Virus record (IMG/VR): IMGVR_UViG_2703718854_000005
DNA: 21,181 nt
Reading direction: 5' to 3' (one strand)
From: a virus
Lineage: Duplodnaviria > Heunggongvirae > Uroviricota > Caudoviricetes
How positions within the stretch are numbered: position 1 is the first letter of the stretch; each line of letters begins with the position of its first letter. Shown here piece by piece: positions 20-15,021 of the stretch. The notes below the pieces were generated by a model, which did no database searches, was not told the origin of the DNA, and was given only the letters and a program-made list of their open reading frames with translations. The position numbers and the translations under genes were made by a program.

Positions 20-1315
20 TTAATTTTTCATTGCTTCGTTATGGGGCATGGTTGGGGCAAACTCGCTTAACTGTGTATTTAACAAAGCTACCTGTGCATT
101 ATTGTTTTCAGACATCCATTTTCCGTATACCTGAAATACCATTTGCGCATCTGCATGGCCCATCTGGTTTGCTATAAATGCCGGGTTAGCACCAGCTGTC
201 AGCGACCAGCAGGCATAAGTATGTCTCGACTGATATGATTTTCGATGGCGGAGTCCGGCACGTTTTATCGCTGCGTCCCACATCTGCCTTATTGAGTCAA
301 CGGTAAAATGGTCACCATAATTTTTTACTCTCGCTGACACTTCAGGTTGAAAAACAAAGGTGCATTTTTGTTTTTCTGTTCTGCCATACTCTCTGAGGTG
401 AACATCAATGATATGCTCTTTGCTCAGTCTCGTTAATGTCATCTGACTCCGGAGAGCGTCGATTGCTGGCTTAATAAGATGAATGACCCGATTGGTTCCC
501 GCCTGTGTTTTTGGTACCGTGAAACGGTCTTTTGCTAAATTTCTCCTGATCATCATTGTTCCATTTTTCAGATCTATGTCCTCCCATCCAAGTGCACACA
601 GCTCACCAGGGCGAACTCCAGTATAAACAGAAACACACCATAAATTTTTTGCTTGCTGATTTCTGCACGCATCGATAAGACGGATAAATTCTTCCCGCGA
701 AAGAGGATCCGGAATGGTTCTTGATTCCTTTAATGGCGAGATCCCCTTAAACGGATTATCTGCCAGGTAACCGTTATCAACACCAAACTGGAACACGGCG
801 TTAAGATTTGTCATGTAATTATTTACAGTTACAGCCGATCTCCCTGGTTGTGTAACAATATAGTTACTTTTGGGGATCTGGTATCCAGTCAGTAACTCTT
901 TACGAACCTCCAGTAATTTTTCTTTATTAATCGATGAGGCAAGATTTTTTTCACCGATTATGCTCAGGATATTTTTGATGACGGCACGGTATGTGTTGAG
1001 TGATGTTTTGGCGACTTCAGTTTCTTTCAGTGCCAGAAATTTTTCAGCCAGTTCTTTTATGGTTAAATCTTGTCGGGCCTCACCAAATTTTTCCAGATTG
1101 CGTGAGGAGGGAAACTGTTTTGCATAGTCGAAAACACCAGTTTTTATTGCGTAACAAACAGAGGAGCGTAGTTCACCTGCAACGCGCCTGTTTTTTGCTG
1201 TGTCAGGAACCCCCAGATTTTCCCTGACTCTTACGTCTTTATAAACAAACCAGATACGTAATTTCCCTCCATGGTTTTCCACGCCTGTCGGATATTTCAT
1301 TTCAACTTCTCTCAT
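20..1315 (-). CDS. Phage integrase, tyrosine recombinase family
   Basis: 431-aa ORF at the prophage edge. C-terminal region has the R...HxxR...Y pattern typical of tyrosine recombinases (RHTYACW, then Y). Alternative start at the second Met (1300). Sits next to a small excisionase-like gene. Confidence 0.85.
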   Translation of the reverse strand: MREVEMKYPTGVENHGGKLRIWFVYKDVRVRENLGVPDTAKNRRVAGELRSSVCYAIKTGVFDYAKQFPSSRNLEKFGEARQDLTIKELAEKFLALKETEVAKTSLNTYRAVIKNILSIIGEKNLASSINKEKLLEVRKELLTGYQIPKSNYIVTQPGRSAVTVNNYMTNLNAVFQFGVDNGYLADNPFKGISPLKESRTIPDPLSREEFIRLIDACRNQQAKNLWCVSVYTGVRPGELCALGWEDIDLKNGTMMIRRNLAKDRFTVPKTQAGTNRVIHLIKPAIDALRSQMTLTRLSKEHIIDVHLREYGRTEKQKCTFVFQPEVSARVKNYGDHFTVDSIRQMWDAAIKRAGLRHRKSYQSRHTYACWSLTAGANPAFIANQMGHADAQMVFQVYGKWMSENNNAQVALLNTQLSEFAPTMPHNEAMKN

Positions 1316-1334
1316 TAGTTAGTGTGGCTTTTAG

Positions 1335-1586
1335 TCAAGTAAGATGACGTCTTGGTCTCGCTGATGCCTGGCGCTCAATCCAGCGATCAATTTCTTCCAG
1401 GTTGTAAAAGCATGGACTGTTATCCCATGGCATACCGTCATGAGCGACATGCTTATATTCCCTTCCTTCCATAAACGATTTTTCCCGGGCCTTTTTTAAC
1501 GTACCTTTTTTTATTCCTTTCAGCGCAATTAACTGCTCTTCGGATACCCATTTGCCGGGAGAGACAATCATGATTACTTCGCTCAT
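1335..1586 (-). CDS. Excisionase-like small protein
   Basis: 83-aa ORF immediately upstream of int on the same strand, with a purine-rich RBS. Assignment is by position and size; no motif checked. Confidence 0.55.
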   Translation of the reverse strand: MSEVIMIVSPGKWVSEEQLIALKGIKKGTLKKAREKSFMEGREYKHVAHDGMPWDNSPCFYNLEEIDRWIERQASARPRRHLT

Positions 1587-1658
1587 CGATTTCTTTATCT
1601 CTTACATCAGACGAGCGCCGGTTGCAGAATACCAGTCACAACCGGCGACAGTTGAACA

Positions 1659-4130
1659 TTAAGAATCAGCCTGACTCGGGATCAGTTTTTGCCAGATAAC
1701 TGAAACGTATTTTGCCTGGTAACGGGCGTCATCAAGTGCATTATGGCGCTCACCTTCGAATGGAATAGCCGTTCTGGCATCGAAGTCTATGGCTTTCCCC
1801 AGCTCAACGATTGTGCGTACATCGCGATCGTTGTAGTAACGCCACGGGCAGGGGATCCCCTGCCGTTCGTATGAACGGCGCAAAATCGTGTTGTCGAAGT
1901 TGGCTCCATTTCCCCAAACCTGAACAAAAAATTCACCGGAGTTTTCGTCGATAAATTCTCGCAATTGTAACAGTGCATCATCTAACGGGATTTCATCGGT
2001 CATAATGGCAGATTGCGCTTCGCGTGATTGCTTAAGCCACCATTTAATGGTGTCCCGATCAATGACTCCGCCAGCAGTTTCCAGATCGATAGTCTTACTA
2101 AATTCCGGTCCCATATCTCCGGTTTGCGGATCGAAAAATATTGCACCTATTGAGATGATCGGGGCATCAGGATTTTTTCCCATGGTTTCAAGGTCGATCA
2201 TTAGATGGTCACACGTCCTGCTGGTGGATGTGATTTCGTGATGACCGTTCACCTTAATTGGGTGATCTGCCGTCTCGCCAGTTTCATTATCGCTATTGTG
2301 ATGCTGATTGCCGCCAGTGTTCTCCTTGTGTGGATGTTCAGCGCCTTCCATTTCCTCCGGATCATCTTCCTGAACTTCAACCTGATACTCTTCATCGAAT
2401 GTTTCTTGGTATGTTGCGTCGCCCATCACCGCGCCACAATCAGGGCAGTTGCCGCCGCCGGTCTGACCGCAGGCGGTGCAGACTTTTTCCACTTCCTGTT
2501 GCGCTACTGGTTCAGGCTGTTTCGTTTCTGGCTCGTTTTGTAACGCATTTGGACTGTTTTGTTCCGCTTTTTGGTAGTTCCGTTCCGATTCATGCTGGTT
2601 CTGGTTCACAGAATCGCGGGTCTGGAGCCCCTTAACCCATTTCGGATCATTCGGGTCACTAATCCCTTCAACAAATTCACCACGTGATGCAGCAAGCAAC
2701 TTATCGGCGTCAGGCTGGCTGATATTGGCTGCCTGCATAATTTTGTTTACTTCGTCAGCGGTAACTTTTATCGGCTCTGGTTGTTCTGAATCTTCAGCGG
2801 TATCTACATTTTGCGGTAAGCCCGTGTATGTGCCATTTTTTCGGGCAAAATATTCTTCTTTTGTGATTTCAGTGGCGCCAGCAGCCAGTGCCTTATCCAG
2901 ACCAGAGAGTTTGTTTGCGCGACCGTATTTTTCTCCGTCCTTATCTGCGAAGAGGAAATAGAACGGCCCCTCACGCTCTACAGATGGTTCAGCTTCCGGC
3001 GCGGTTTCATTTTTTGGGATATCAGATACCTCAGTTTCCACTGCATCAGTTTGTGTTTCTGATGACTGGAGAACATCAACAGTGCCCAGGTCTGTTTCTT
3101 CATTCTCAAACACGCCCTTTGTCGTCAGGTATTCGCAGATATATTTGTTCAGTGCTACGGGATCTTTGTGAATGTCGATCGGACGCTCACGGACAAGGCC
3201 AAAAATAGTTTGGCGGTCGTAGCGAAGGGCATCAGGCTGTTTGCGCATTGATGCCGAGATACGCTTCCAGTCTTCGCGGTCGTTGTCGATAACTTCTTTT
3301 TTTGCCCAGCGATGGATGCTGCCGTCAATGTTTCCGGCATCCACATCACTAGGCCAGAGAGCGTAGGCCAGTTCGTCATCCAGTGTTTTCCATGTCTGCT
3401 TGTATTCGCGATGAATGGCAGCAATGACCGGGCTGATTTTTCCTGTTGAATTTTCAGTGTACTGTTGATTGGCTCTGGCGCGGGCGAGATCAACAACAGA
3501 CGTGTATTTTCCGGTTTCCTTGCGTTCACCTTCGCGACGTTTTTTCCAGATGCGCATCTCTGCCTGAATTTCGGGCCATTTAGCACCAGGAATACATTTA
3601 TGCTTAACCCACCCAATGGCGTGCAACTTAAGCTCCGGATACATGGCGTTAACTTCTGGCATTTTCATCAACGCTTCAACGATATGTCCGTCGAATGTTG
3701 CCATGTCTTCCTGCAACAATTCCTGTGCGCTAATAACCATATCAACGGTGATGTTTTCACATGTGTCGAACTTAACCATGACAGCGTTCTGTACTTCAGG
3801 GGCCAGCTTGTCAAAAGTGACGTTCATCGGATCGGATTCAGTCTCAACCGGGACAAAAGAAGCAGACTCCTCATCCCAGCGGTTTTCCTGCATATATTCA
3901 GCATCCCATGAATCGAGGGCAGGGCGGGGTATGCCAGGTTTATCCTCGCAGACAATAAATTTATAAGCGCAGTCCTGAGCAGCCGGATAATGTTCCAGGA
4001 ATTGCCAGTGAAATTTTGCTCGAGCACGGCGTTCGTCGCCAGCTTCAATGGCTGTGGCTACAGCCACAGCGCCTTCTTCCCTTGTTGCCAGTTCGTCAGG
4101 AATAGCGGCGCAAATAAAGACTTTACTCAT
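1659..4130 (-). CDS. Large phage exonuclease with C-terminal DnaQ-like (DEDDh) 3'-5' exonuclease domain
   Basis: Long ORF; the track start is 4166 but the ATG at 4130 (MSKVF...) has a GAGG RBS. C-terminal motifs: Exo I IDLETMG, Exo II WGNGANFD, Exo III HNALDDARY. Central CxxC...CxxC zinc-ribbon-like segment and acidic low-complexity linker. Confidence 0.8.
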   Translation of the reverse strand: MSKVFICAAIPDELATREEGAVAVATAIEAGDERRARAKFHWQFLEHYPAAQDCAYKFIVCEDKPGIPRPALDSWDAEYMQENRWDEESASFVPVETESDPMNVTFDKLAPEVQNAVMVKFDTCENITVDMVISAQELLQEDMATFDGHIVEALMKMPEVNAMYPELKLHAIGWVKHKCIPGAKWPEIQAEMRIWKKRREGERKETGKYTSVVDLARARANQQYTENSTGKISPVIAAIHREYKQTWKTLDDELAYALWPSDVDAGNIDGSIHRWAKKEVIDNDREDWKRISASMRKQPDALRYDRQTIFGLVRERPIDIHKDPVALNKYICEYLTTKGVFENEETDLGTVDVLQSSETQTDAVETEVSDIPKNETAPEAEPSVEREGPFYFLFADKDGEKYGRANKLSGLDKALAAGATEITKEEYFARKNGTYTGLPQNVDTAEDSEQPEPIKVTADEVNKIMQAANISQPDADKLLAASRGEFVEGISDPNDPKWVKGLQTRDSVNQNQHESERNYQKAEQNSPNALQNEPETKQPEPVAQQEVEKVCTACGQTGGGNCPDCGAVMGDATYQETFDEEYQVEVQEDDPEEMEGAEHPHKENTGGNQHHNSDNETGETADHPIKVNGHHEITSTSRTCDHLMIDLETMGKNPDAPIISIGAIFFDPQTGDMGPEFSKTIDLETAGGVIDRDTIKWWLKQSREAQSAIMTDEIPLDDALLQLREFIDENSGEFFVQVWGNGANFDNTILRRSYERQGIPCPWRYYNDRDVRTIVELGKAIDFDARTAIPFEGERHNALDDARYQAKYVSVIWQKLIPSQADS

Positions 4131-4364
4131 TTGTTTTAACCTCATGACAGATTTAAGGATGAACAAATCCCTGCCATTGCTGGCATATAAGAATGAAACC
4201 GGATATTTATTACGGAACTGTTTTAAAGACCTGCCGGGATTTCGATATTATCCTGGTGAATAACTTTATCGACCGGGTACAGAGAATCCACCCATAACAC
4301 TGTTTTTGGTTTTAACTGTTCCGCGTGCGCTCAGCCGCATTCACCACATCACAAAATTCACTTT

Positions 4365-4422
4365 AAAAAGGGCGGCAGAGCAGTCACGGAGTAAAACTGA
4401 TACCGCCAAACGTCACCAGAAA
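4365..4422 (-). ncRNA. dicF: DicF small RNA (ftsZ-targeting sRNA of Qin-type prophages) with its terminator hairpin and U-tail
   Basis: Minus-strand sequence TTTCTGGTGACGTTTGGCGGTATCAGTTTTACTCCGTGACTGCTCTGCCGCCC followed by TTTTT matches DicF as I remember it. Lies downstream of ydfA-ydfB-ydfC as in the dicB operon. Confidence 0.85.
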
Positions 4423-4762
4423 ATTGATAACAGAGGGCGTTGCAGCGGGGTTGTCACTTAAGCGTATGGTCAACCTGACAACCCGGTGTCCTCAACGGGG
4501 AAGGAATAACCCCGCCATACTTACCGCCGCGCCATTTCGCGGGTTGCCACAACCGGAAGCGCACGGTCGACGAAAATTTAACGACAGGCTATCTATGAAC
4601 CAGCTACCTCGCCGTGCGCTTTCGCGTTATGGTCTGACTTTTCAGGGAAATATCCTTTCAGTAAACTGTCAGTTCCGGATGCGCACCCGTGTCCGGCGCA
4701 CGCACTCCACCTCACCCGTGGAGAACTCCTTAATTACTAACCTTAGCTTTGTTGATTAGCTA

Positions 4763-4981
4763 CTAACGCGGGTATGTAATCATTCTGGCAATGCTTAATG
4801 CCGCTGCTTTTTCCAGATTGGTGATATCCTGCTCCAGAGCGGACAGATTTTCAGCCTGCTTAGCCCTGGCTTCATTAGCCCATTTCAGATCCTGCGCTGC
4901 ATTAATTTTCTGGCGCATCCACTCATAAAGTTCATCATCGGTATAGTCTGGCGCGATGATGACGGGTTCTCGTTTCTGCAT
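4763..4981 (-). CDS. ydfC: YdfC-like small protein (dicB-operon protein)
   Basis: 72-aa ORF with a GAGGAA RBS, in operon position ydfA-ydfB-ydfC-dicF. Confidence 0.7.
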   Translation of the reverse strand: MQKREPVIIAPDYTDDELYEWMRQKINAAQDLKWANEARAKQAENLSALEQDITNLEKAAALSIARMITYPR

Positions 4982-5010
4982 ACTGATTCCTCGCGGTGCT
5001 GTTTCGCTTA

Positions 5011-5139
5011 TCAGCCGTTAGATTTTGCCGAACTGGAAAGCGCCTGTTTAAACTCACTGAAGCTGAGAGCTTCTTCGCCTTCGGCAAGGCCTTCGAAGTA
5101 TTCTTCGTAAGCCTTTTCCATGATTGTGTCGAAATCCAT
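5011..5139 (-). CDS. ydfB: YdfB-like small acidic protein (42 aa)
   Basis: Not in the ORF track (below 60 aa). Manual translation of the minus strand gives MDFDTIMEKAYEEYFEGLAEGEEALSFSEFKQALSSSAKSNG. AGGTGA RBS overlaps the stop of the upstream gene. Size and position match ydfB. Confidence 0.6.
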   Translation of the reverse strand: MDFDTIMEKAYEEYFEGLAEGEEALSFSEFKQALSSSAKSNG

Positions 5140-5140
5140 A

Positions 5141-5296
5141 TCACTCACCTGAGTTTCTTTCCAGCCAGCGACGGGCACCATTTTCGGTTTTAAACGTTTT
5201 GCTTTTGGTATACGTCATTGCGGTGAACGTGCCGTCCTGGTTTGGAAACACGCCGTACACCAGAGATTCGTTGTTGCCAAGATCGATAGTATCCAT
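5141..5296 (-). CDS. ydfA: YdfA-like small protein (51 aa)
   Basis: The track ORF 5141..5374 begins at a TTG; the internal ATG at 5296 has a GAGG RBS and gives the 51-aa product MDTIDLGNNESLVYGVFPNQDGTFTAMTYTKSKTFKTENGARRWLERNSGE. First gene of the dicB-type operon. Confidence 0.6.
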   Translation of the reverse strand: MDTIDLGNNESLVYGVFPNQDGTFTAMTYTKSKTFKTENGARRWLERNSGE

Positions 5297-5462
5297 GCTG
5301 ACCTCATTTCCCCTTAACGCTGGGGTAGCGGAACTGTTTGCTGAGAACACCGTGCGGTGTGTTGATGCAAACAAGATTAGCCATGACTAACATATCGGTC
5401 AAGTGATTTTGTATGCTATAGCTAACATAATTGATGTGGTAAAAGATAACTCATTGATGATG
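5297..5462 (-). promoter_or_regulatory. Promoter/operator region of the ydfA-ydfB-ydfC-dicF operon (DicA-repressed in Qin)
   Basis: Intergenic between the dicA stop and ydfA start. Contains the inverted repeat GATAAC-N11-GTTATC and a TGTTAGCTATAGCA-like element. Exact promoter elements not resolved. Confidence 0.4.
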
Positions 5463-5870
5463 TTATCTTTTATTTGTCCGCTGACGGGCTTTTAGTAATT
5501 CTTCAAAGAGTTTATTGAAGTTTTTTACTCGAGCTCGCATTTCGGCGAGCTGGGTATCCTGTTCTGATTCTGGCAGTGCATTAAACAGCTCAAGGAGCTC
5601 TAGTTCTTTGGGGGATAAGGCAACTGGCTTCTCAACAGGTGGTGTTGGTTGCTTGTCTTCATCGCCAAATAGAATCCATGTTGGTGAGCATTGCAATACT
5701 TTGCTGAGGGCAAAAAGGTTCTTCCCTGTAGGTTCACTATCACCCCGTTCCCATTGTGATACAGACACATGGGAGATTTTCAGGGCTTTAGCAAGAGACC
5801 TTTGGGTGTGTTTGAGGTTTTTCCGACGATACCTGATGCGTTCGCCGATAGTTAAATTTTTTGTTTCCAT
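5463..5870 (-). CDS. dicA: DicA repressor (HTH, cI/C2-like)
   Basis: 135-aa ORF; sequence matches DicA as I remember it (METKNLTIGERIRYRRKNLKHTQRSLAKALKISHVSVSQWERGDSEPTGKNLF...). Divergent from dicC. Confidence 0.9.
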   Translation of the reverse strand: METKNLTIGERIRYRRKNLKHTQRSLAKALKISHVSVSQWERGDSEPTGKNLFALSKVLQCSPTWILFGDEDKQPTPPVEKPVALSPKELELLELFNALPESEQDTQLAEMRARVKNFNKLFEELLKARQRTNKR

Positions 5871-5953
5871 AGTTAGCTAATGCTAAATCGTATTGACTAT
5901 GTTTTTGTTAACATCTATCTTGTTAGTTATGACTAACAATAAAGGTGTTTTAA
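5871..5953. promoter_or_regulatory. Divergent dicA/dicC promoter-operator region
   Basis: Perfect inverted repeat TTGTTAGT-tatg-ACTAACAA at 5920..5939, plus palindromes TTAGCTAA (5873..5880) and TGTTAACA. Sits between divergent repressor genes. Confidence 0.6.
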
Positions 5954-6298
5954 ATGCTTAAAACTGACGCTCTTTTGTATTTCGGTTCAAAAACAAAACT
6001 TGCACAAGCAGCAGGTATTCGTTTGGCTTCGCTTTATAGCTGGAAAGGGGATTTAGTTCCCGAAGGTCGCGCGATGCGTCTAGCAGGGAGGATTTGGCGT
6101 GTGCGCAGTGGATCTGGGGGCGGATCGTGGGTCTCTACGAACAGGCAGCCAGTGATGATGGCGAGATCATGCGACCAAAAGAGCCTAACTGGACTGCCTG
6201 GGCCAATGACGTGCGCACAATGCGGATGCTGGATGGCAGAAGCCACAGACAAATTTGCGAAATGTTTGGTCGGGTTCAGCGAGATCCATTCTGGGTAA
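5954..6298 (+). CDS. dicC: DicC-like Cro-type repressor; 3' extent uncertain
   Basis: The first ~43 aa (MLKTDALLYFGSKTKLAQAAGIRLASLYSWKGDLVPEGRAMRL) match DicC as I remember it. The rest of the frame is G/S/W/C-rich and looks non-protein-like, and overlaps an alternative-frame ORF. The end coordinate is just the first stop in frame. Confidence 0.5.
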   Translation: MLKTDALLYFGSKTKLAQAAGIRLASLYSWKGDLVPEGRAMRLAGRIWRVRSGSGGGSWVSTNRQPVMMARSCDQKSLTGLPGPMTCAQCGCWMAEATDKFAKCLVGFSEIHSG

Positions 6299-6435
6299 AA
6301 AACATCATGAGCCCGTCAAAGCTCCGCGAAAAATGGGACGAACTGGTCATCCGCCTGGGACGTTCACCTGTACAGCGTTGTGTTAATCATATTTCTGAAC
6401 CGGATACAGAAATTCCGCCTGGTTTCAGAGGATAA
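6169..6435 (+). CDS. Hypothetical protein with HTH-like segment
   Basis: Frame 1 is open from 6040 and has protein-like composition (MRPKEPNWTAWANDVRTMRMLDGRSHRQICEMFGRVQRDPFW...). Possible starts are TTG 6094, GTG 6127 and ATG 6169. Overlaps the extended dicC frame. Confidence 0.35.
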   Translation: MRPKEPNWTAWANDVRTMRMLDGRSHRQICEMFGRVQRDPFWVKNIMSPSKLREKWDELVIRLGRSPVQRCVNHISEPDTEIPPGFRG

Positions 6436-6475
6436 GTGTTGATTTCAGGTCATGAGGTAATTTTAAGGGGGACTT

Positions 6476-6898
6476 GTGGCAAAAGTTTTTACACAAGAAG
6501 AGCGGGAAAAAATTAAATGGCAGGTGGTGGAACTCGTGCGCCAGAGCGGCCGTGAGACGTTACGGCAACTGGAAGCTAAAACAGGTGCGACTAGATATCT
6601 GATGAGCGTTCTTGCCAGAGAGCTGGTAGCCAGTGGCGATGTATACAACTCCGGCTACGGGTTATTCCCCTCTGAACAGGCGCGTAAGGACTGGCAAAAC
6701 GCCCGCAAAAAACTCTCGAGGGCAAAGGTGAAGAAACCTGCTGTGGTTGATCCGGACCTTATCTGGTCATCACCTGACGGAGAAATACGTCGCTACGACA
6801 GTCGCCTAAACATAATCTGTCGCGAGTGCCGGAAGAGCGAAGTTATGCAGCGCATACTGGCTTTCTATCAGGGTAATTTTCAGGACGTGGCGCAGTGA
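6476..6898 (+). CDS. Hypothetical phage early-region protein (140 aa)
   Basis: GTG start preceded by an AAGGGGG RBS. Stop overlaps the start of the next ORF (GTGA), indicating translational coupling. Confidence 0.6.
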   Translation: MAKVFTQEEREKIKWQVVELVRQSGRETLRQLEAKTGATRYLMSVLARELVASGDVYNSGYGLFPSEQARKDWQNARKKLSRAKVKKPAVVDPDLIWSSPDGEIRRYDSRLNIICRECRKSEVMQRILAFYQGNFQDVAQ

Positions 6899-7251
6899 GT
6901 GCACCGGCAACCATTCTTGATATGTGCTGTGGCAGCCGCATGTTCTGGTTCGATAAGTCTGACGAACGGGCGATATTCAGCGATATCAGAAAAGAAGGAT
7001 ACACATTACGCAATGGGAGACGCTTGATTATCAGCCCTGACATTATCGCAGATTTTCGTGCATTATCATTTGCAGACGCATCTTTTTCGATGGTTGTATT
7101 AGACCCTCCGCATCTTGAGAGTGTTGGTGATAACGCCTGGATGGGAAAGAAATATGGACGGCTGAATAAAGATGCCTGGCGTGATGATTCGCGACAGAGA
7201 TTTAAAGAAGCCTTTCGGGTGTTGAGGCCGCACGGCGTTCTGATTTTTTAA
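6895..7251 (+). pseudogene. SAM-dependent DNA methyltransferase-like fragment (C-terminally truncated)
   Basis: 118-aa ORF with ILDMCCGSR (motif I-like), VVLDPPH (DPPY-type motif IV) and RVLRPHGVLIF (RVLKPGG-like). Ends right after this motif and both other frames stop within a few codons. Too short for a complete methyltransferase. Confidence 0.45.
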
Positions 7252-7673
7252 TGGAATGAAACGCAAATACCGGTAAGCCAGATTCTGGCACTGACAGACA
7301 GAAAACCTGTTATCTGTCAACGAACAGGGAAAAAACGATAAAACCCACTGGATTATTTTTATGAAAGAGGCATCCAGTGAGTAGATTCGTAAGGCTACAG
7401 ATACGTATATCTGAATAATTAAATTCAGTTCTGTAAATAAAATTTAATCCTTAACCGGATGGATTTCTGCACCCTCAGAACATCAGGAGGCCGCCCGAAA
7501 GGGCGGTAGTGAAATGCGAAAGTTCAAAATTATTATTGAAACGGGAATAGCTGGTGGAGATTTTGAGGATGTATTCGAAGTGGACGATGACGCAACACCT
7601 GAGGAAATTCATGACGGAGCATAAGAAATTTTCTTTAACTACTGCAATTACTCATACCACGAAATAAAAGACG

Positions 7674-7865
7674 ATGAGGAAGAACAAAGTGGCTGATTTT
7701 TGTTCAGCTAAATATAACATCAGTTTTGAAGAGCGGGATGAACTATTAATGGACTATGGTGAGTTACGCGGTGGAAGTGCTGCTGATGTCGAATCCTAGC
7801 GTGATGACTATGAAGCGGGAAAAACTCCGGTCGAAGCATATTGTGATGAGTGGGGCGATGAATGA
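7674..7865 (+). pseudogene. Small ORF interrupted by an in-frame TAG (7797..7799)
   Basis: ATG 7674 gives 41 codons, then TAG, then 21 further sense codons (RDDYEAGKTPVEAYCDEWGDE) ending in a TGA that overlaps the next ATG (ATGA at 7862). Confidence 0.3.
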
Positions 7866-8149
7866 GCGAGATTAATTATCAGGAAGGGCATGAAACGGCG
7901 GGGCAAGCAAAACCAGTGGCATGGCGATATCGCTACGTGAAAAAAGGCGTTACGGACTTTCAGGGGAAGTAGTGGTCTGGTGACTGGAAATATGTACCGA
8001 AAAAAGAGGATTGTAACGACAGGCCGAACTATCAAATTCAGGCCTTATTCACTGCCTCACCAGTCCCAGTTACATCAGAAGAACTGGTTAAAGCTGTGCA
8101 CTTTTATGAACAACTAAAACGCGAAAATCCACCAACATCCGGCAACTAG
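7862..8149 (+). pseudogene. Small ORF (95 codons) interrupted by an in-frame TAG (7970..7972)
   Basis: ATG 7862 gives 36 codons, TAG, then 59 stop-free codons in the same frame to TAG 8147..8149. An open run that long in AT-rich sequence is unlikely by chance. Confidence 0.4.
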
Positions 8150-8403
8150 ATTAATGGATTAACTATGTCGGTTAAACGACCAGCCAACTGAAAAAGCGGA
8201 AACCTGATTACAGGTTGCCAGATAAGGCAATGAGCTACCTGGCGCGGAACGGACTGATAAGTATGGGGAATGTTTTACGATGAACCTTTAGACTAAAGAG
8301 TTTGTAACGCTATGTAAGTGATTTTTTCTGGTTTAGATATTTATATGTCCGGCCAAATTGAGGTGTGTTTAAATGTAATTGCACATTGATTGTAGGAGGA
8401 ATA

Positions 8404-8583
8404 ATGAAAAACGCATTGCAGTTTTTGTTTGTTGCGTTCTGGTTGTTCGCATCATGTATGCCCATCATCTTCACAGCAAGGTATATGGAAAAAGTTGATG
8501 TTTTGATATTAATATTTGGATATATAAATGCCCTTTTTTTAGGGGTGTTCATGGCGGTCATGTGCATTGAATACTGGCGGTAA
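8404..8583 (+). CDS. Small hydrophobic membrane protein (59 aa, two predicted TM helices)
   Basis: ATG 8404 preceded by a strong AGGAGG RBS. Product MKNALQFLFVAFWLFASCMPIIFTARYMEKVDVLILIFGYINALFLGVFMAVMCIEYWR. Lies in AT-rich DNA. Confidence 0.5.
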   Translation: MKNALQFLFVAFWLFASCMPIIFTARYMEKVDVLILIFGYINALFLGVFMAVMCIEYWR

Positions 8584-8889
8584 ATACAGCGAACTCCATT
8601 GGTTTAGTTGGATATTTACTGTGCTGGACAAAAACGGTTTGCGGGGAAATCTTAGTTAAGTAGAATGACTGCGGGTGCTTGAGGCTATCTGCCTCGGGCA
8701 TGGACACCAACGGCAGATAGAGAAAAGCCCCAGTTAACATTACGCGTCCTGCAAGACGCTTAACATTAATCTGAGGCCAATTTCATGCTAGACACATGTA
8801 GGTTAGCCTCTTACGTGCCGAAAGGCACGGAGAAGCAGGCTATTGTTAACACCAAGCTGTAATGTCCCCTTTGAACCATTCTAAAATGT

Positions 8890-8917
8890 CCCCAGACAAT
8901 TCTCTGGGGGATTTTTC
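8890..8917 (+). promoter_or_regulatory. Hairpin sequestering the transposase RBS, with terminator-like U-run
   Basis: Stem CCCCAGA (8890..8896) pairs with TCTGGGG (8903..8909), loop caattc. The GGGGGA Shine-Dalgarno (8906..8911) is in the 3' arm. TTTTT at 8912..8916 sits immediately before ATG 8918. Confidence 0.5.
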
Positions 8918-10231
8918 ATGATCAAAGAGACTGTTACGATGAGTCATAAGGAACTCCACCGACTTCAGATTATTCAGGAACAAGCTGCGGCACGCATTGG
9001 CATTTCTATTCGGCAGGTTAAACGTCTGGTGCAACGGTATAGAAATGAAGGGCCTTCTGGTCTGGTTTCCCACCGACGTGGAAAGCGTCCTAATAATTCC
9101 TTTTCTACTGAATTCAGAGCAACAGTAATTTCACTCCTCAAAGGCCGTTACGCTGATTTTGGACCTACGTTTGCGTGCGAAAAATTGCGCGAGATACACG
9201 GTTTATCTTTATCCGTTGAAACTCTCAGAAAGTGGATGATAGAAGAGGGGTTATGGCGTGAACGCCGTCGTAAAATTGCCCGTATATATCAACGCCGCAT
9301 GCGACGACCATCTTACGGTGAACTGATCCAGATTGATGGCTCACCTCATGACTGGTTTGAAAATCGAGGCCCCAGATGTACACTGATCGTATTCATTGAT
9401 GATGCCACCAGTGCGTTGATGGCGTTGCGTTTTGTGCCTGCTGAAACAACCCGGGCTTACATGGAAACCCTCCGGGGTTACCTTAATGATCATGGCGTAC
9501 CGCTCGCTCTCTACTCTGATAGACACAGTATATTCAGGGTAAATAACCCAGAGCGGGAAGGTGAGCTGACCCAGTTCACTCGTGCGATAAAGACACTGGG
9601 CATCGAGCCAATCCATGCCAACAGCCCGCAGGCAAAAGGGCGGGTAGAGCGCGCCAATCAGACACTACAGGACAGGCTGGTCAAAGAAATGCGGCTTCAG
9701 AATATCAGTGATATTGAAACAGCAAATGCATGGTTGCCGACCTTTATTGAAGCCTATAACAACCGGTTCGCTACGTCGCCTCGTACTACTGATAATGCTC
9801 ATCTTGATGTGCACCATTCTGAAGAGGAACTGGGTTATATCTTCAGCCTACAGGCGAAGCGCGTTCTGTCTAAAAATCTCACTTTCCAGTACAAAAGCAG
9901 TGCGTTTCAGGTACGCAGTGAGGGCCGGGGATATCGACTTAGGCATTCGGTTGTTACTGTATGCGAGAACTTTGACGGTGAAATTAACGTTCTGTATGAC
10001 GGGAAAGCGCTGGGCTGGGAAAAGTATGTTGATGGCCCGGAGCCTATACCACTGGATGATGAAAAGAGTGTCCATGAACGAGTGGATAATGCCCGTATTG
10101 ATTTACGCTCAAAATACTATGTTAAACCTAAAGCTGACCATCCCTGGCTTACGCGCCGAACGCAAAGTCATCAGCAAGTTAAGCCCCCGAAGTTACCTAA
10201 AAAGAAGCCTGATCCCGATAAAAAAGATTGA
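8918..10231 (+). CDS. DDE transposase with retroviral-integrase-like (rve) core and N-terminal HTH; IS481/ISNCY-like, family tentative
   Basis: 437-aa ORF. N-terminal HTH-like region (IGISIRQVKRLVQRY), rve-type motifs (IQIDGSPHDW ... YSDRHSIF ... HANSPQAKGRVERANQTLQDRL), K-rich C-terminal tail. No istB-like partner downstream. Confidence 0.85.
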   Translation: MIKETVTMSHKELHRLQIIQEQAAARIGISIRQVKRLVQRYRNEGPSGLVSHRRGKRPNNSFSTEFRATVISLLKGRYADFGPTFACEKLREIHGLSLSVETLRKWMIEEGLWRERRRKIARIYQRRMRRPSYGELIQIDGSPHDWFENRGPRCTLIVFIDDATSALMALRFVPAETTRAYMETLRGYLNDHGVPLALYSDRHSIFRVNNPEREGELTQFTRAIKTLGIEPIHANSPQAKGRVERANQTLQDRLVKEMRLQNISDIETANAWLPTFIEAYNNRFATSPRTTDNAHLDVHHSEEELGYIFSLQAKRVLSKNLTFQYKSSAFQVRSEGRGYRLRHSVVTVCENFDGEINVLYDGKALGWEKYVDGPEPIPLDDEKSVHERVDNARIDLRSKYYVKPKADHPWLTRRTQSHQQVKPPKLPKKKPDPDKKD

Positions 10232-10667
10232 AACCAAGATCGATTCGGTTGAGTGCATATCCATTCATAGGGTAGATTCTTAAGTCGCGTTTCTGGTGTT
10301 CATTTTCGGGTGGTTTGTTACTTGTTTTACCGGGGATATGCCAGAAACGCGCTGAGTCAGTCTGGGCGGTGCGCGTAATGAGGCGTTATGGTAAATAGCC
10401 TATGCTAATGTCCGCTAAGAGCAAGAAGCGGAAGTTGGCAGTTTTGTGGACTGTCCCCACAAAAGTGACTACAGAAATAGTTGCAATTCATAATTGATCA
10501 TGGGTTGTCAGTTAAACTCGTGGCGATTTAAATAGACTAATTGGGAGTGCGTCCATTACTTATATCTTGTAATGTTAACTATCAGAAATGATACAAAGAT
10601 AATATGTCTTTAAAGAAAAGGCTGATGGCGAAAAGTGGCCCGATGAGGGCCACAATACGGCTGTCAC

Positions 10668-11000
10668 TTAGACGTAAATATCAATGGTGCCAGCGGTATT
10701 TGTATCGTCTTTTTTCTCTTCTTTTTTATCAGGCTGAACTGTCGCGTCTTCATTCTTTTTCTCTGCCTGCTGCCTTAACAACTGCTCCAGTTGAGCCCAG
10801 AGGCTTTCAATTTGCTTCTGTACCAATGCAGCCATTTCTTTTTTCTGCTGTGTCGTCATCCCCTCTTCCGATGAGATTTTCCCAAGCTTTTCAGTCAGCA
10901 CCTGAATTTGTCTTGTGATTTTGGCTATTTCTGATGTTCCTTCCGGGGCGGAGTTGTTTGAAATAACGGTTGAGGTATTTCCCTGAATTGTGACAGACAT
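10668..11000 (-). CDS. flxA: FlxA (flagellar-regulon protein of Qin-type prophages)
   Basis: 110-aa ORF matching FlxA as I remember it. GGAGA RBS and a near-consensus sigma-28 promoter upstream. Confidence 0.85.
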   Translation of the reverse strand: MSVTIQGNTSTVISNNSAPEGTSEIAKITRQIQVLTEKLGKISSEEGMTTQQKKEMAALVQKQIESLWAQLEQLLRQQAEKKNEDATVQPDKKEEKKDDTNTAGTIDIYV

Positions 11001-11023
11001 AGATTTCTCCTTTTAAAAAAGCA

Positions 11024-11050
11024 CTATCGGCATGCACAAAAAAATCTTTA
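11024..11050 (-). promoter_or_regulatory. Sigma-28 (FliA) promoter of flxA
   Basis: On the minus strand: TAAAGATT (-35; consensus TAAAGTTT), 11-nt spacer, GCCGATAG (-10; consensus GCCGATAA), about 25 nt upstream of the flxA ATG. Confidence 0.7.
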
Positions 11051-11202
11051 ATCGTATTTCTTGTGTCATTAATTGTTTGATGTTCAGATTGTTTTCCTCG
11101 CGGGCTGGCGCGCCTCAGAAAGTAAAGCTTGTTGACAGGGGTAAACGTTCGGCAATAATTTTCTGCCGCATGCGGGTGTTGCATAAAACGTGTTACGTTC
11201 CT

Positions 11203-11508
11203 TTATCGACAGGTCAGGTCACCGCTCACCCGCCGACGAGAAAGCAACACTGACATGCTAAAGCAAAAAATAGATGAATAAGTTGAGTTGTGCATATGTA
11301 GCCTGACCGTCACAAAGTATATGGTGTCTGTACCAGTAAGATGATGGCCGGACTCTTTAAAAACGAGCTGACCTGCACAATACAGGATGGACTTAGCAAT
11401 GGCTGCTCCTGGCACAAAGCGGACAGTGATCACCGTTCTTACGACTACTTTCTGACTTCCTTCGTGACTTGCCCTAAGCATGTTGTAGTGCGATACTTGT
11501 AATGACAT
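11203..11508 (-). CDS. Dubious 101-aa ORF in the position where K-12 annotates ydfV
   Basis: Length and position between relB and flxA fit ydfV as I remember it. Composition is not convincingly protein-like and it is antisense to the relBE promoter region. Confidence 0.2.
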   Translation of the reverse strand: MSLQVSHYNMLRASHEGSQKVVVRTVITVRFVPGAAIAKSILYCAGQLVFKESGHHLTGTDTIYFVTVRLHMHNSTYSSIFCFSMSVLLSRRRVSGDLTCR

Positions 11509-11532
11509 TTGTAATTACAAGAGGTGTAAGAC
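11480..11532 (+). promoter_or_regulatory. relBE promoter/operator (relO-like)
   Basis: Palindromic TTGTAATGACATTTGTAATTACAAG element containing the perfect palindrome TGTAATTACA, immediately upstream of the relB RBS (GAGGTG). Confidence 0.55.
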
Positions 11533-11772
11533 ATGGGTAGCATTAACCTGCGTATTGACGATGAACTTAAAGCGCGTTCTTACGCCGCGCTTGAAAAAAT
11601 GGGTGTAACTCCTTCTGAAGCGCTTCGTCTCATGCTCGAGTATATCGCTGACAATGAACGCTTGCCGTTCAAACAGACACTCCTGAGTGATGAAGATGCT
11701 GAACTTGTGGAGATAGTGAAAGAACGGCTTCGTAATCCTAAGCCAGTACGTGTGACGCTGGATGAACTCTGA
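11533..11772 (+). CDS. relB: RelB antitoxin
   Basis: 79-aa ORF matching RelB as I remember it (MGSINLRIDDELKARSY...RVTLDEL). Stop overlaps the relE start. Confidence 0.9.
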   Translation: MGSINLRIDDELKARSYAALEKMGVTPSEALRLMLEYIADNERLPFKQTLLSDEDAELVEIVKERLRNPKPVRVTLDEL

Positions 11773-12059
11773 TGGCGTATTTTCTGGATTTTGACGAGCG
11801 GGCACTAAAGGAATGGCGAAAGCTGGGCTCGACGGTACGTGAACAGTTGAAAAAGAAGCTGGTTGAAGTACTTGAGTCACCCCGGATTGAAGCAAACAAG
11901 CTCCGTGGTATGCCTGATTGTTACAAGATTAAGCTCCGGTCTTCAGGCTATCGCCTTGTATACCAGGTTATAGACGAGAAAGTTGTCGTTTTCGTGATTT
12001 CTGTTGGGAAAAGAGAACGCTCGGAAGTATATAGCGAGGCGGTCAAACGCATTCTCTGA
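11772..12059 (+). CDS. relE: RelE mRNA interferase toxin
   Basis: 95-aa ORF matching RelE as I remember it (MAYFLDFDERALKEWRKLG...). Overlapping start/stop with relB. Confidence 0.9.
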   Translation: MAYFLDFDERALKEWRKLGSTVREQLKKKLVEVLESPRIEANKLRGMPDCYKIKLRSSGYRLVYQVIDEKVVVFVISVGKRERSEVYSEAVKRIL

Positions 12060-12130
12060 ACCAAAGCATGACATCTCTGTTTCGCACCGAAGGTGACACT
12101 TCTGCTTTGCGTTGACAGGAGAAGCAGGCT

Positions 12131-12286
12131 ATGAAGCAGCAAAAGGCGATGTTAATCGCCCTGATCGTCATCTGTTTAACCGTCATAGTGACGGCACTGG
12201 TAACGAGGAAAGACCTCTGCGAGGTACGAATCCGAACCGGCCAGACGGAGGTCGCTGTCTTCACAGCTTACGAACCTGAGGAGTAA
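12131..12286 (+). CDS. hokD: HokD (RelF) Hok-family membrane toxin
   Basis: Not in the ORF track (51 aa). Manual translation gives MKQQKAMLIALIVICLTVIVTALVTRKDLCEVRIRTGQTEVAVFTAYEPEE. Lies directly downstream of relE. Confidence 0.85.
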   Translation: MKQQKAMLIALIVICLTVIVTALVTRKDLCEVRIRTGQTEVAVFTAYEPEE

Positions 12287-12354
12287 GAGACCCGGCGGGG
12301 GAGAAATCCCTCGCCACCTCTGATGTGGCAGGCATCCTCAACGCACCCGCACTT

Positions 12355-12380
12355 AACCCGCTTCGGCGGGTTTTTGTTTT
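12355..12380 (+). terminator. Intrinsic terminator downstream of hokD
   Basis: Stem CCCGC (12357..12361), loop ttcg, GCGGG (12366..12370), followed by TTTTTGTTTTTATTTT. Confidence 0.6.
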
Positions 12381-12502
12381 TATTTTCAACGCGTTTGAAG
12401 TTCTGGACGGTGCCGGAATAGAATCAAAAATACTTAAGTAGCGCGCAGGGATAAGAGGGATGGTCCCTTAAAGGGGAGAGCTAATTATCCGGAAGGATTC
12501 TG

Positions 12503-12754
12503 ATGATGAACATCGAAGAACTGCGTAAAATTTTTTGTGAAGATGGCCTCTATGCTGTGTGCGTTGAAAATGGAAATCTTGTTAGTCATTACCGCATTAT
12601 GTGTTTGCGAAAGAATGGGGCTGCGTTAATTAATTTTGTGGATGCTCGGGTCACGGACGGATTTATCTTGCGCGAAGGTGAGTTTGTCACTTCATTACAG
12701 GCATTGAAAGAGATCGGAATAAAAGCTGGCTTTTCTGCTTTTTCAGGAGAATAA
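12503..12754 (+). CDS. rem: Rem-like protein (Qin prophage)
   Basis: 83-aa ORF; size and position between hokD and ydfU match rem. Confidence 0.7.
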   Translation: MMNIEELRKIFCEDGLYAVCVENGNLVSHYRIMCLRKNGAALINFVDARVTDGFILREGEFVTSLQALKEIGIKAGFSAFSGE

Positions 12755-12820
12755 ACTCATCTACAATCTTGCGCGGGGCTGAACTCCCGCTGAGTAACAC
12801 CGTGCCACCGGAGAAAACCG

Positions 12821-13099
12821 ATGGCACGCAACGCAAAATATTACAATTCTGATAATTCGCCCGTTCTTGCCTGCACGCACGGGCGGTATTCTCACGCATT
12901 CAAGTCTGAATGGTTCCAGCACCCTCCATGCACTGCAGAACAGGCCGAATGGCTGATTCATTCTTACCGCAGGCGCGGGTTCGAGGTTAAGAAAGCTCTC
13001 AGTCTCGACTATCGGCACTGGATAATCTCTGTCAGGCTGCCTTATTCCGAACGCCCACCACGTGCGTCCCGCACTTTCCAGCAACGGATCTGGAGGTAA
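12821..13099 (+). CDS. Hypothetical 92-aa protein coupled to ydfU
   Basis: ATG with a GGAGA RBS six nt upstream. Its 3' end contains the GGAGG RBS of the downstream ydfU GTG start. Confidence 0.4.
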   Translation: MARNAKYYNSDNSPVLACTHGRYSHAFKSEWFQHPPCTAEQAEWLIHSYRRRGFEVKKALSLDYRHWIISVRLPYSERPPRASRTFQQRIWR

Positions 13100-13100
13100 C

Positions 13101-14150
13101 GTGCGGGTATTACTTAGACCTGTTCTGGTGCCTGAGCTTGGGCTGGTGGTCCTTAAGCCGGGCCGTGAATCCATACAGATATTTCATAATCCTCGAGTGC
13201 TGGTGGAACCGGAACCAAAAAGCATGCGTAATCTGCCATCCGGAGTCGTTCCTGCCGTTCGCCAGCCGCTGGCGGAAGACAAAACATTGCTGCCGTTTTT
13301 TAGTAACGAACGGGTGATTCGTGCTGCTGGCGGCGTTGGCGCATTGTCCGACTGGCTATTACGTCATGTTACATCCTGCCAGTGGCCTAATGGCGATTAC
13401 CATCACACTGAAACAGTCATTCACCGTTATGGTACCGGCGCAATGGTGTTGTGCTGGCACTGCGACAACCAACTGCGTGACCAGACATCGGAATCACTGG
13501 AGCTGCTTGCTCAACAAAATCTGACAGCATGGGTGATTGACGTCATCCGTCACGCAATAAGCGGTACGCAGGAGCGGGAATTATCTTTGGCTGAATTATC
13601 CTGGTGGGCGGTCTGCAATCAGGTGGTGGATGCACTACCTGAGGCTGTATCGCGTCGTTCGCTGGGATTACCAGCGGAAAAAATCTGCTCGGTGTACCGC
13701 GAAAGCGACATCGTACCGGGAGAGCAGACCGCCACCAGCATATTGAAACAACGCACAAAAAATCTTGCACCGTTGCCTTACGCCCACCAGCAACAAAAAT
13801 CACCACAGGAAAAGACGGTGGTAAGCATCACCGTTGATCCAGAGTCTCCGGAATCTTTCATGAAGCTGCCTAAACGTCGCCGCTGGGTTAAGGAGAAATA
13901 CACACGTTGGGTTAAGACACAGCCGTGTGCTTGCTGCGGTATGCCAGCCGACGATCCGCATCATCTGATTGGTCACGGGCAGGGCGGAATGGGAACAAAA
14001 GCACATGATCTCTTTGTGTTGCCTTTGTGCAGAAAGCATCACAACGAGCTGCATACGGATACAGTGGCATTTGAAGATAAGTATGGCTCTCAACTGGAGC
14101 TGATATTTCGTTTTATCGATCGCGCGCTGGCAATTGGCGTACTGGCGTAA
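13101..14150 (+). CDS. ydfU: YdfU-like DUF968 protein with C-terminal HNH/zinc-finger-like motif
   Basis: GTG start at 13101 (GGAGG four nt upstream) gives 349 aa, the K-12 YdfU length as I recall. C-terminal CACCGMPADDPHHLIGHGQGGMGTKAHDLFVLPLCRKHHNELH is Cys/His-rich. Confidence 0.75.
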   Translation: MRVLLRPVLVPELGLVVLKPGRESIQIFHNPRVLVEPEPKSMRNLPSGVVPAVRQPLAEDKTLLPFFSNERVIRAAGGVGALSDWLLRHVTSCQWPNGDYHHTETVIHRYGTGAMVLCWHCDNQLRDQTSESLELLAQQNLTAWVIDVIRHAISGTQERELSLAELSWWAVCNQVVDALPEAVSRRSLGLPAEKICSVYRESDIVPGEQTATSILKQRTKNLAPLPYAHQQQKSPQEKTVVSITVDPESPESFMKLPKRRRWVKEKYTRWVKTQPCACCGMPADDPHHLIGHGQGGMGTKAHDLFVLPLCRKHHNELHTDTVAFEDKYGSQLELIFRFIDRALAIGVLA

Positions 14151-14163
14151 GTGGAGAACGAGC

Positions 14164-14916: not shown

Positions 14917-14947
14917 ATGATTTTTGCTGAAGATGGCGACATGATGT

Positions 14948-14976: not shown

Positions 14977-15021
14977 TTTTTCAACGATGGGCTTTGTATA
15001 CCCGACGTTAAGAAAAAGTAG

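What the first reader, a model, noticed from the sequence alone, without database searches (positions are those of the whole stretch)
7514..8149. Three coupled small ORFs each broken by an in-frame stop codon (TAA 7622, TAG 7797, TAG 7970)
ORF 7862..8149 has 36 codons, a TAG, then 59 stop-free codons in the same frame; ORF 7674..7865 has a TAG followed by 21 sense codons and an ATGA overlap with the next gene. Either these are recent nonsense mutations in a decaying moron cassette, or the element was maintained under amber suppression.
Basis: seen in the sequence. Interest (0 to 1): 0.5.

Follow-up and report, generated by a model that had tools for sequence, protein, structure and literature searches.

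The report
Nonsense-mutated pseudogenes in Qin-type prophage
The three small genes with internal stop codons are ordinary dead genes (pseudogenes) in a decaying Qin-type cryptic prophage of E. coli; related phages carry intact copies, and nothing points to stop-codon suppression.

Summary
In detail: TAA 7622, TAG 7797 and TAG 7970 each interrupt a small, translationally coupled ORF. Base-call error is excluded, because the 901-bp stretch is 100% identical in the 30 listed complete E. coli genomes and at least 99% identical in 507 records. The window is a Qin-type cryptic prophage (dicA/dicC, DicF, relBE, hokD, cspB/F).

About 99 related IMG/VR phage copies of other haplotypes have sense codons at these positions: AAA (Lys), TGG (Trp) and CAG/CCG (Gln/Pro). 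The read-through products match phage families across the stops (DUF7167/phrog_1997, phrog_519, phrog_660).

The damage is wider than reported:
- The methyltransferase upstream has its own in-frame TAA (7249) plus a frameshift.
- The "natural" orf3 stop at 8147 is another CAG>TAG.
- orf3 also has a 90-bp deletion and a 4-bp deletion, and its remnant runs to 8283.
- The orf2 start is ATG>GTG.

Two nonsense codons among about 24 lineage-specific substitutions is what neutral drift gives (P=0.25). Amber suppression is not supported: two of the five stops are ochre, one relative has TAG>TAA, the window has no tRNA, and frameshifts accompany the stops. NCBI's PGAP pipeline already marks two of these genes as pseudogenes.

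One oddity remains. All three stops are codon 37 of their ORF (post hoc P about 3e-4). I read this as coincidence.

The parts
6895..7369 (+). Class I SAM-dependent methyltransferase pseudogene. It has an in-frame TAA at 7249-7251 (Lys119, AAA, in intact homologs) and a 1-nt G insertion near 7329 that shifts the frame. The intact homolog is 157 aa. The 3' end given here is approximate, read from the alignment with the intact gene.
   Evidence: alignment with the intact WP_001275735.1 gene in L127. PGAP marks it 'frameshifted; internal stop' in strain H1 and NZ_CM194533.
7490..7507 (+). GC-rich hairpin (GCCGCCC-GAAA-GGGCGGU) 6 nt upstream of the orf1 start. Its 3' arm through the ATG (7500-7516) is conserved in related phages. 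Function unknown.
7514..7696 (+). orf1, a DUF7167-family pseudogene: 36 codons, TAA at 7622-7624 (AAA/Lys in 98 other copies), then 23 codons to TGA 7694-7696. The intact form is 60 aa.
   Evidence: PGAP: 'DUF7167 family protein, internal stop'.
7689..7865 (+). orf2, a phrog_519-family pseudogene. The start is GTG (ATG in 98 other copies). After 36 codons comes TAG at 7797-7799 (TGG/Trp in 97 of 98 others), then 21 codons to TGA 7863-7865. The intact form is 58 aa. It overlaps the end of orf1 by 8 nt and the start of orf3 by ATGA.
7862..8283 (+). orf3, a phrog_660-family pseudogene with at least four lesions relative to the intact 171-aa form: CAG>TAG at 7970-7972; a 90-bp in-frame deletion between ENPP/DNPP repeats at 8125/8126; CAG>TAG at 8147-8149; and a 4-bp deletion near 8180.
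   Evidence: PGAP: 'hypothetical protein; frameshifted; internal stop'.

Best explanation
The window is a Qin-type cryptic lambdoid prophage of E. coli. The stretch 6895-8283 holds four consecutive early-region accessory genes that are now pseudogenes: a small SAM-dependent methyltransferase, a DUF7167 gene, a 58-aa gene and a 171-aa gene.

In functional relatives the last three form a tightly overlapping, translationally coupled set of 60, 58 and 119 or 171 codons. In the Qin lineage each gene took ordinary point mutations to a stop:
- AAA>TAA at 7249 and 7622
- TGG>TAG at 7797
- CAG>TAG at 7970 and 8147

These sit alongside a start-codon change, frameshifts and deletions.

Shown here: the ancestral sense codons, the homology across the stops, the additional lesions, and the fixation of the haplotype in hundreds of genomes.

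Inferred: the genes stopped being useful once the prophage was grounded, selection on them relaxed, and neutral mutation did the rest. The orf3 TAG allele is shared with other phage backgrounds, so it probably arose separately and spread by recombination.
For: - Identity of the element. Synteny with dicA/dicC/ydfABC/relBE/hokD/rem/ydfU/cspF/cspB, DicF RNA and cspA elements.
- Sense codons elsewhere. In 121 aligned copies, the other haplotypes have AAA at 7622 (98 of 99), TGG at 7797 (97 of 99) and CCG/CAG/TTG/ATG/CTG/TGG at 7970. The triple-stop haplotype forms a separate group of 22.
- Intact lengths. Full-length orf1 occurs in 94 of 99 and orf2 in 95 of 99 copies of other haplotypes. Intact trios of 183, 177 and 516 bp are annotated in E. 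coli 3CM and in phages.
- Homology across the stops. DUF7167 E=1e-13, phrog_1997 E=2e-29, phrog_519 E=2e-13, phrog_660 E=6e-29, each spanning the stop.
- More lesions in the same block. Methyltransferase TAA plus frameshift; orf3 second TAG, 90-bp and 4-bp deletions; orf2 ATG>GTG. Within the haplotype there are further indels and a TAG>TAA change.
- Decay around the block. There are a 1182-bp and a 387-bp deletion upstream relative to another Qin copy. An ISNCY transposase ORF lies downstream; PGAP calls it incomplete in another copy.
- Relaxed constraint. Against the nearest intact haplotype (L022) there are 10 synonymous, 12 nonsynonymous and 2 nonsense changes. The replacements hit residues invariant in 98 copies (D30, E35, N59; W16, H17, A24). 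The crude omega is about 0.3, against 0.11-0.12 among intact copies. The odds ratio against common polymorphism is 2.6-4.0, p=0.08-0.016.
- Neutral expectation. 24 random substitutions give a mean of 0.96 stops, P(2 or more)=0.25.
- Existing annotation. PGAP already flags these genes as pseudogenes.
Against: - Statistical support for relaxed selection is modest. If all rare variants in the intact copies are counted, the N:S ratio does not differ from the Qin branch (p=0.5-0.8).
- Omega on the Qin branch is about 0.3, not 1, so much of the divergence predates inactivation.
- Downstream of the orf2 stop there are only two changes, both synonymous, in 21 codons. A recombination junction near 7815 would explain this equally well.
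- All three stops fall at codon 37, which neutral decay does not predict.
- The identical haplotype occurs in a record deposited as a complete phage genome (PhiR42_1), so the element may not be immobile in every host.
- Expression of the locus was not examined.
Confidence: 0.9

Rival explanations
1. Suppression or programmed read-through. The stops are decoded as sense codons by an amber suppressor tRNA or by context-dependent read-through, so the full-length proteins are still made.
For: The frames stay open for 21-58 codons after the stops. Only two changes, both synonymous, lie downstream of the orf2 stop.
Against: - orf1 and the methyltransferase are stopped by TAA, not TAG.
- One relative has TAG>TAA at the orf2 stop.
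- There is no tRNA gene in the window.
- orf3 and the methyltransferase also carry frameshifts and deletions that read-through cannot repair.
- Six of 22 copies of the haplotype have a further 1-nt deletion in orf3.
- Replacements hit invariant residues.
- The base after the stop differs at every site (T, G, C, T, A), so there is no shared context.
- The haplotype is spread through hundreds of natural isolates.
Confidence: 0.02
2. Selected inactivation, or truncated products that still function. The stops were favoured because the full-length early proteins harm a lysogen, or because the 36-residue N-terminal peptides are useful. This would account for the stops falling at the same codon index.
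For: - All three stops are codon 37 (post hoc P about 2.6e-4).
- Independent nonsense alleles recur: TAG at the same orf2 codon in phage 606R7 on a different local haplotype, and TGG>TAG at codon 95 of the O157:H7 methyltransferase homolog.
- orf3 is disrupted in many otherwise intact phages.
- PGAP names the 36-aa orf1 product as a protein in one record.
Against: - The three stops arose by different mutation types (A>T, G>A, C>T) with no shared sequence motif.
- Their population distributions differ: the orf3 TAG is widespread on its own, while the other two occur only in the Qin haplotype.
- The retained N-terminal parts carry replacements at invariant residues and orf2 has a weakened start, which does not look like preservation of the peptides.
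- The number of stops fits neutrality.
- About 5% of other copies are disrupted at other positions.
- No toxicity data exist.
Confidence: 0.06
3. Sequencing or assembly artefact.
For: None found.
Against: The sequence is identical in independently sequenced complete genomes and in IMG/VR contigs.
Confidence: 0

Closest known systems
Pseudogenes of E. coli cryptic prophages (Qin, Rac, DLP12, e14), as flagged by NCBI PGAP and described for 'grounded' prophages (PMC6379469; Bobay, Touchon & Rocha 2014 PNAS, from own knowledge)
   Same: It is a defective lambdoid prophage present in a large share of E. coli genomes. PMC6379469 reports Qin in 48% of 638 strains. Genes are inactivated by point nonsense mutations, frameshifts, deletions and IS insertion. 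PGAP notes 'internal stop' and 'frameshifted; internal stop' on these very genes.
   Different: Nothing essential. orf2 is not annotated at all in the records examined. The methyltransferase and the 36-aa orf1 fragment are annotated inconsistently, as a CDS in some records and a pseudogene in others.
Intact orf1-orf2-orf3 cassette of lambdoid phages and prophages (vB_EcoS-640R1, vB_Apl-pPE4, ArgO145 gp15/gp14/gp13, Rac of strain 442/2 HP1-HP3, E. coli 3CM)
   Same: The gene order is the same, with the same 8-nt and 4-nt start/stop overlaps. Nucleotide identity is 86-93%.
   Different: Those copies have sense codons at the three positions and encode 60-, 58- and 119/171-aa proteins, or an Ead/Ea22-like protein in the third slot. 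The function of all of them is unknown.
Amber-mutant phage genes kept in suppressor hosts (laboratory sus/am mutants)
   Same: In-frame TAG codons in phage genes.
   Different: The stops here are a mix of TAA and TAG, the hosts are natural isolates, there is no suppressor tRNA in the window, and other lesions accompany the stops.

Membership tests
Pseudogene by nonsense mutation | Homologs encode a longer protein that reads through the stop position with a sense codon | tested here: met
   AAA in 98 of 99, TGG in 97 of 99, and CCG/CAG and other sense codons at the three sites. Full-length orf1 in 94 of 99 and orf2 in 95 of 99 other copies. The 171-aa orf3 form was found in 31 loci.
Pseudogene by nonsense mutation | Sequence downstream of the stop is still recognisably homologous to the family | tested here: met
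   DUF7167, phrog_1997, phrog_519 and phrog_660 matches span the stops.
Pseudogene by nonsense mutation | The stop is real, not a base-call error | tested here: met
   100% identity in all 30 listed complete genomes, and 478-507 records at 99% or more.
Pseudogene by nonsense mutation | Relaxed selective constraint on the lineage | tested here: inconclusive
   12 nonsynonymous and 2 nonsense against 10 synonymous changes, with replacements at invariant residues. Against common polymorphism the odds ratio is 2.6-4.0, p=0.08-0.016. Against all variants there is no difference.
Suppressor-dependent or programmed read-through genes | All interrupting stops are of one type that a single suppressor or recoding signal can decode | tested here: not met
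   TAA at 7249 and 7622; TAG at 7797, 7970 and 8147. A TAG>TAA variant exists in a relative.
Suppressor-dependent or programmed read-through genes | A cognate suppressor tRNA is encoded by the element | tested here: not met
   ARAGORN finds no tRNA in the 21-kb window. The rest of the host genome was not available.
Suppressor-dependent or programmed read-through genes | The reading frame is otherwise intact | tested here: not met
   orf3 has a 4-bp deletion and the methyltransferase a 1-nt insertion.
Suppressor-dependent or programmed read-through genes | The full-length product is detectable | not testable with these tools
   Needs proteomics or ribosome profiling.
Qin-type cryptic prophage of E. 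coli | Synteny of int-xis-exo, dicB region, DicF, ydfABC, dicA/dicC, relBE, hokD, rem, ydfU, Q, cspF/cspB and lysis genes | tested here: met
   Window 1010-16300 aligns in three blocks at 99.6-99.9% identity with a locus annotated with these genes. DicF and cspA elements were found by Rfam.
DUF7167 (PF23768), orf1 only | Score above the Pfam gathering threshold over the whole domain | tested here: met
   51.6 bits against a cutoff of 24.4, profile positions 1-60 of 60, with the stop replaced by Lys.
Moron | An independent transcription unit (own promoter and terminator) with composition different from its surroundings | tested here: not met
   There is one weak promoter-like site, at the rate seen in shuffled sequence, and no terminator after the cassette. 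GC is 0.43 against 0.45 for the window. The genes overlap their neighbours in intact phages. The pattern scans are weak evidence.

The most novel reading that the evidence does not exclude
The identical position of the three stops (36 sense codons in each of three consecutive coupled ORFs) is not a coincidence. It would reflect selection, either for a set of 36-residue N-terminal micro-proteins or for silencing of a cassette that harms lysogens, making this a small case of prophage gene domestication by convergent truncation.
Probability: 0.04. Interest if true: 0.45.

Novelty: already known. Interest (0 to 1): 0.1.

Why it matters
It matters little biologically. It is a clear example of gene decay in a widespread cryptic prophage, with the ancestral codon recovered for each stop. 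The practical value is for annotation:
- orf2 (7689-7865) is an unannotated pseudogene.
- The 118-aa methyltransferase and the 36-aa 'DUF7167 protein' that some RefSeq records list as proteins are truncation products.
- The 84/85-aa 'hypothetical protein' annotated in some phages is an out-of-frame reading of a frameshifted orf3.

Tried and rejected
- Tandem duplication or a periodic repeat, as an explanation for the 175/173-nt spacing of the stops: no such repeats were found, and the three ORFs belong to different protein families.
- A shared mutational motif or hotspot at the stops: the flanks differ and the mutation types differ.
- Suppressor tRNA in the element: none found.
- Programmed frameshifting at the A-run 7941-7946 of orf3. 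Alleles with 6, 7 or 8 A's, or a deleted G, exist. The +1 frame is open for 41-56 codons in all haplotypes, so its openness is a property of the sequence. Its product is unlike the family, so I read this as slippage-prone drift in a dead gene.
- Function of the intact genes: Pfam gives only DUF7167, NCBIfam gives nothing, PHROGs lists 'unknown function', and no paper mentions DUF7167.
- A simple McDonald-Kreitman-style count against all variants in intact copies gave no signal. The signal appears only against common polymorphism.
- The large protein-database searches and structure prediction were not used, because the local loci already answered the question.

Full report
**1. Observation**

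- orf1 (7514-7696) has 36 codons, TAA, then 23 codons to TGA.
- orf2 has TAG followed by 21 codons, and ends in the ATGA overlap with orf3 at 7862-7865.
- orf3 has 36 codons, TAG, then 58 sense codons (not 59) to TAG 8147-8149.

The stops are not sequencing errors. The 901-bp stretch 7400-8300 is 100% identical in all 30 listed complete E. coli genomes (ATCC 8739, W, IAI39, 042, CE10, UMNK88 and others), and 507 records are at least 99% identical. It is 99.9% identical in the GenBank record Escherichia phage PhiR42_1 from ECOR13.

**2. Where this is**

The window aligns at 99.6-99.9% with a locus annotated int, xis, exonuclease, ydfD, dicB, ydfC/B/A, dicA, dicC, a YdaT-family gene, an O-like gene, a DUF977 gene, a methyltransferase, [the three ORFs], an ISNCY transposase, ydfW, flxA, ydfV, relBE, hokD, rem, ydfU, an antiterminator, and cspF/cspB. 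Rfam finds DicF (4370-4421, minus strand), a sok-like RNA (8673-8844) and two cspA thermoregulators. This is the Qin-type cryptic prophage. Qin is reported in 48% of 638 Escherichia/Shigella genomes, with very variable size and content (PMC6379469).

NCBI's PGAP pipeline already annotates 7514-7696 as 'DUF7167 family protein; internal stop' and 7862-8283 as 'hypothetical protein; frameshifted; internal stop'. orf2 is not annotated in those records.

**3. What the ORFs were**

With the stops replaced by sense residues, each product matches a phage family across the stop position:
- orf1 matches Pfam DUF7167 (51.6 bits, cutoff 24.4, whole profile) and phrog_1997 (E=1.6e-29).
- orf2 matches phrog_519 (E=1.6e-13).
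- orf3 matches phrog_660 (E=5.7e-29).

All are of unknown function. NCBIfam gives nothing, and no paper in the library mentions DUF7167.

Intact copies are annotated in phages vB_EcoS-640R1, vB_Apl-pPE4, vB_EcoM-606R7, ArgO145 and Rac of strain 442/2, and in E. coli 3CM. There they are overlapping genes of 183 and 177 bp, followed by a third gene of 360 or 516 bp or by an Ead/Ea22-like gene. The alignment shows that the true orf2 start is at 7689, 8 nt inside orf1. It is ATG in homologs and GTG in the window.

**4. Ancestral codons**

An exact-match scan of IMG/VR with a 31-nt anchor at the orf2/orf3 junction returned 120 contigs. In 121 aligned copies:
- The triple-stop haplotype TAA/TAG/TAG, with the GTG start, occurs in 21 copies. 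One more copy has TAA/TAA/TAG.
- The other 99 copies have AAA (Lys; 98 of 99) at 7622 and TGG (Trp; 97 of 99) at 7797.
- At 7970 they have a variable codon: CCG 31, CAG 24, TAG 23, TTG 9, ATG 6, CTG 3, TGG 2, CGA 1.

The mutations are therefore AAA>TAA, TGG>TAG and most simply CAG>TAG. orf1 is full-length in 94 of 99 and orf2 in 95 of 99 copies of other haplotypes. The only homologs that end at these positions are the Qin haplotype itself and one phage, 606R7, which has TAG at the same orf2 codon on a different local haplotype.

**5. The damage is wider than reported**

- The methyltransferase upstream (6895-7251, 118 aa) is also cut by an in-frame TAA at 7249. The intact 157-aa homolog (WP_001275735.1) has AAA there. 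The window copy also has a 1-nt insertion near 7329. The O157:H7 homolog carries its own, different TGG>TAG.
- Against an intact 171-aa orf3 (L084), the window copy has CAG>TAG at 7970, a 90-bp in-frame deletion between ENPP/DNPP repeats at 8125/8126, a second CAG>TAG at 8147-8149, and a 4-bp deletion near 8180. The remnant runs to 8283.
- Within the Qin haplotype, 6 of 22 copies have a further 1-nt deletion at 7946 and one has two extra A's in the A-run.
- Relative to another Qin copy, the window has lost 1182 bp (the dicC 3' end, the ydaT-like gene and most of the O-like gene) and 387 bp (ydfD/dicB). An ISNCY transposase ORF lies just downstream; PGAP calls it incomplete in another Qin copy.

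**6. Is it more than chance, and is selection relaxed?**

Against the nearest intact haplotype (L022), 7500-7865 differs at 25 positions: 1 intergenic, 10 synonymous, 12 nonsynonymous (one of which is also the ATG>GTG start change) and 2 nonsense. The replacements hit residues invariant in 98 other copies: D30, E35 and N59 in orf1, and W16, H17 and A24 in orf2.

Pairwise dN/dS among intact copies is 0.11-0.12. The Qin-branch counts give roughly 0.3. A contingency test against common polymorphism in intact copies gives an odds ratio of 2.6-4.0 (p=0.08 to 0.016). Against all variants, including singletons, there is no difference. Relaxed constraint is therefore suggested but not proven by substitution counts. 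The independent lesions in section 5 are the stronger evidence.

Simulating 24 random substitutions in the ancestral orf1+orf2 gives a mean of 0.96 stops and P(2 or more)=0.25. The number of stops needs no special explanation.

The identity distribution of the orf1-orf2 segment in 5426 E. coli genomes is bimodal: 478 records at 99% or more, 21 at 95-99%, 560 at 90-95% and 849 at 80-90%. No intermediate haplotype was seen in IMG/VR, so 'recent' is not supported.

**7. Amber suppression**

This reading is rejected, for these reasons:
- Two of the five stops in the block are ochre.
- A relative has TAG>TAA at the orf2 stop.
- There is no tRNA gene in the window.
- The base after the stop differs at each site.
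- Frameshifts and deletions accompany the stops.
- The haplotype sits in hundreds of natural isolates.

**8. An unexplained detail**

With the correct orf2 start, each of the three stops is codon 37 of its ORF. Given one single-step nonsense mutation per ORF, weighted by which codons can mutate to a stop, the probability that all three share a codon index is about 2.6e-4. This is a post hoc calculation. Several points argue against a common cause:
- The mutation types differ (A>T, G>A, C>T).
- There is no shared flanking motif.
- There is no repeat structure, and the ORFs belong to different families.
- The population histories differ. The orf3 TAG occurs in 23 contigs whose orf1 and orf2 carry sense codons at the stop positions, usually together with A-run length changes.

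I treat it as coincidence. I give a small probability to selected truncation or silencing.

**9. Verdict**

These are ordinary pseudogenes in a decaying region of a Qin-type cryptic prophage, already partly flagged by PGAP. The amber-suppression alternative is not supported.

Noticed in passing
window 6895-7369: The adjacent methyltransferase gene, listed as a 118-aa protein in several RefSeq records, is itself truncated by an in-frame TAA at 7249 (AAA in the intact 157-aa homolog) and has a 1-nt insertion near 7329. The O157:H7 homolog has an independent TGG>TAG at codon 95.
   Followed up: yes
window 8125-8283: The apparent natural stop of orf3 (TAG 8147) is a CAG>TAG mutation. A 90-bp deletion between ENPP/DNPP repeats and a 4-bp deletion also disrupt the gene, whose remnant ends at 8283.
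   Followed up: yes
window 7622, 7797, 7970: With the homolog-supported orf2 start (7689), all three stops are codon 37 of their ORF. The post hoc probability is about 2.6e-4, and no mechanistic link was found.
   Followed up: partly
window 7941-7946; L003 and other IMG/VR loci: The orf3 TAG allele occurs with A-runs of 6, 7 or 8 A's, or with a deleted G. The +2 and -1 variants create an 84/85-aa out-of-frame ORF that is annotated as a hypothetical protein in phage vB_EcoS-640R1.
   Followed up: partly
window 4266-4282 and about 6081-6099: Relative to another Qin copy (L001), the window lacks 387 bp (most of ydfD and all of dicB) and 1182 bp (the dicC 3' end, the ydaT-like gene and most of the O-like gene). 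The blocks flanking each deletion overlap by 17 nt and 19 nt in the window, which suggests deletion between short direct repeats. The 114-aa ORF at 5954-6298 begins with a DicC-like N-terminus.
   Followed up: partly
window 8673-8844 (+): A sok-like antitoxin RNA (Rfam RF01794, 104 bits) lies between the orf3 remnant and the ISNCY transposase ORF (8918-10231). Related phages have a hok gene at the corresponding place. Whether a hok ORF survives here was not checked.
   Followed up: no
window 7490-7507: A GC-rich hairpin with a GAAA loop lies 6 nt upstream of the orf1 ATG. Its 3' arm through the ATG (7500-7516) is nearly invariant in four phages. The 51-nt stretch 7470-7520 folds at -17.4 kcal/mol (z = -2.1).
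   Followed up: partly
L131 (NZ_CM194533) against L001 (NZ_CP026085): PGAP is inconsistent for the same sequence. The 36-aa orf1 fragment is a named protein (WP_001224658.1) in one record and a pseudogene in the other. orf2 is annotated in neither.
   Followed up: partly
L094 (IMG/VR contig), orf3 codons 37-40: In one phage the first 39 residues of orf3 (ending GKQWV) are fused to an unrelated C-terminal module. Codon 37 is also the most variable codon of the gene (P/Q/L/M/W/stop), which suggests a module junction there.
   Followed up: no
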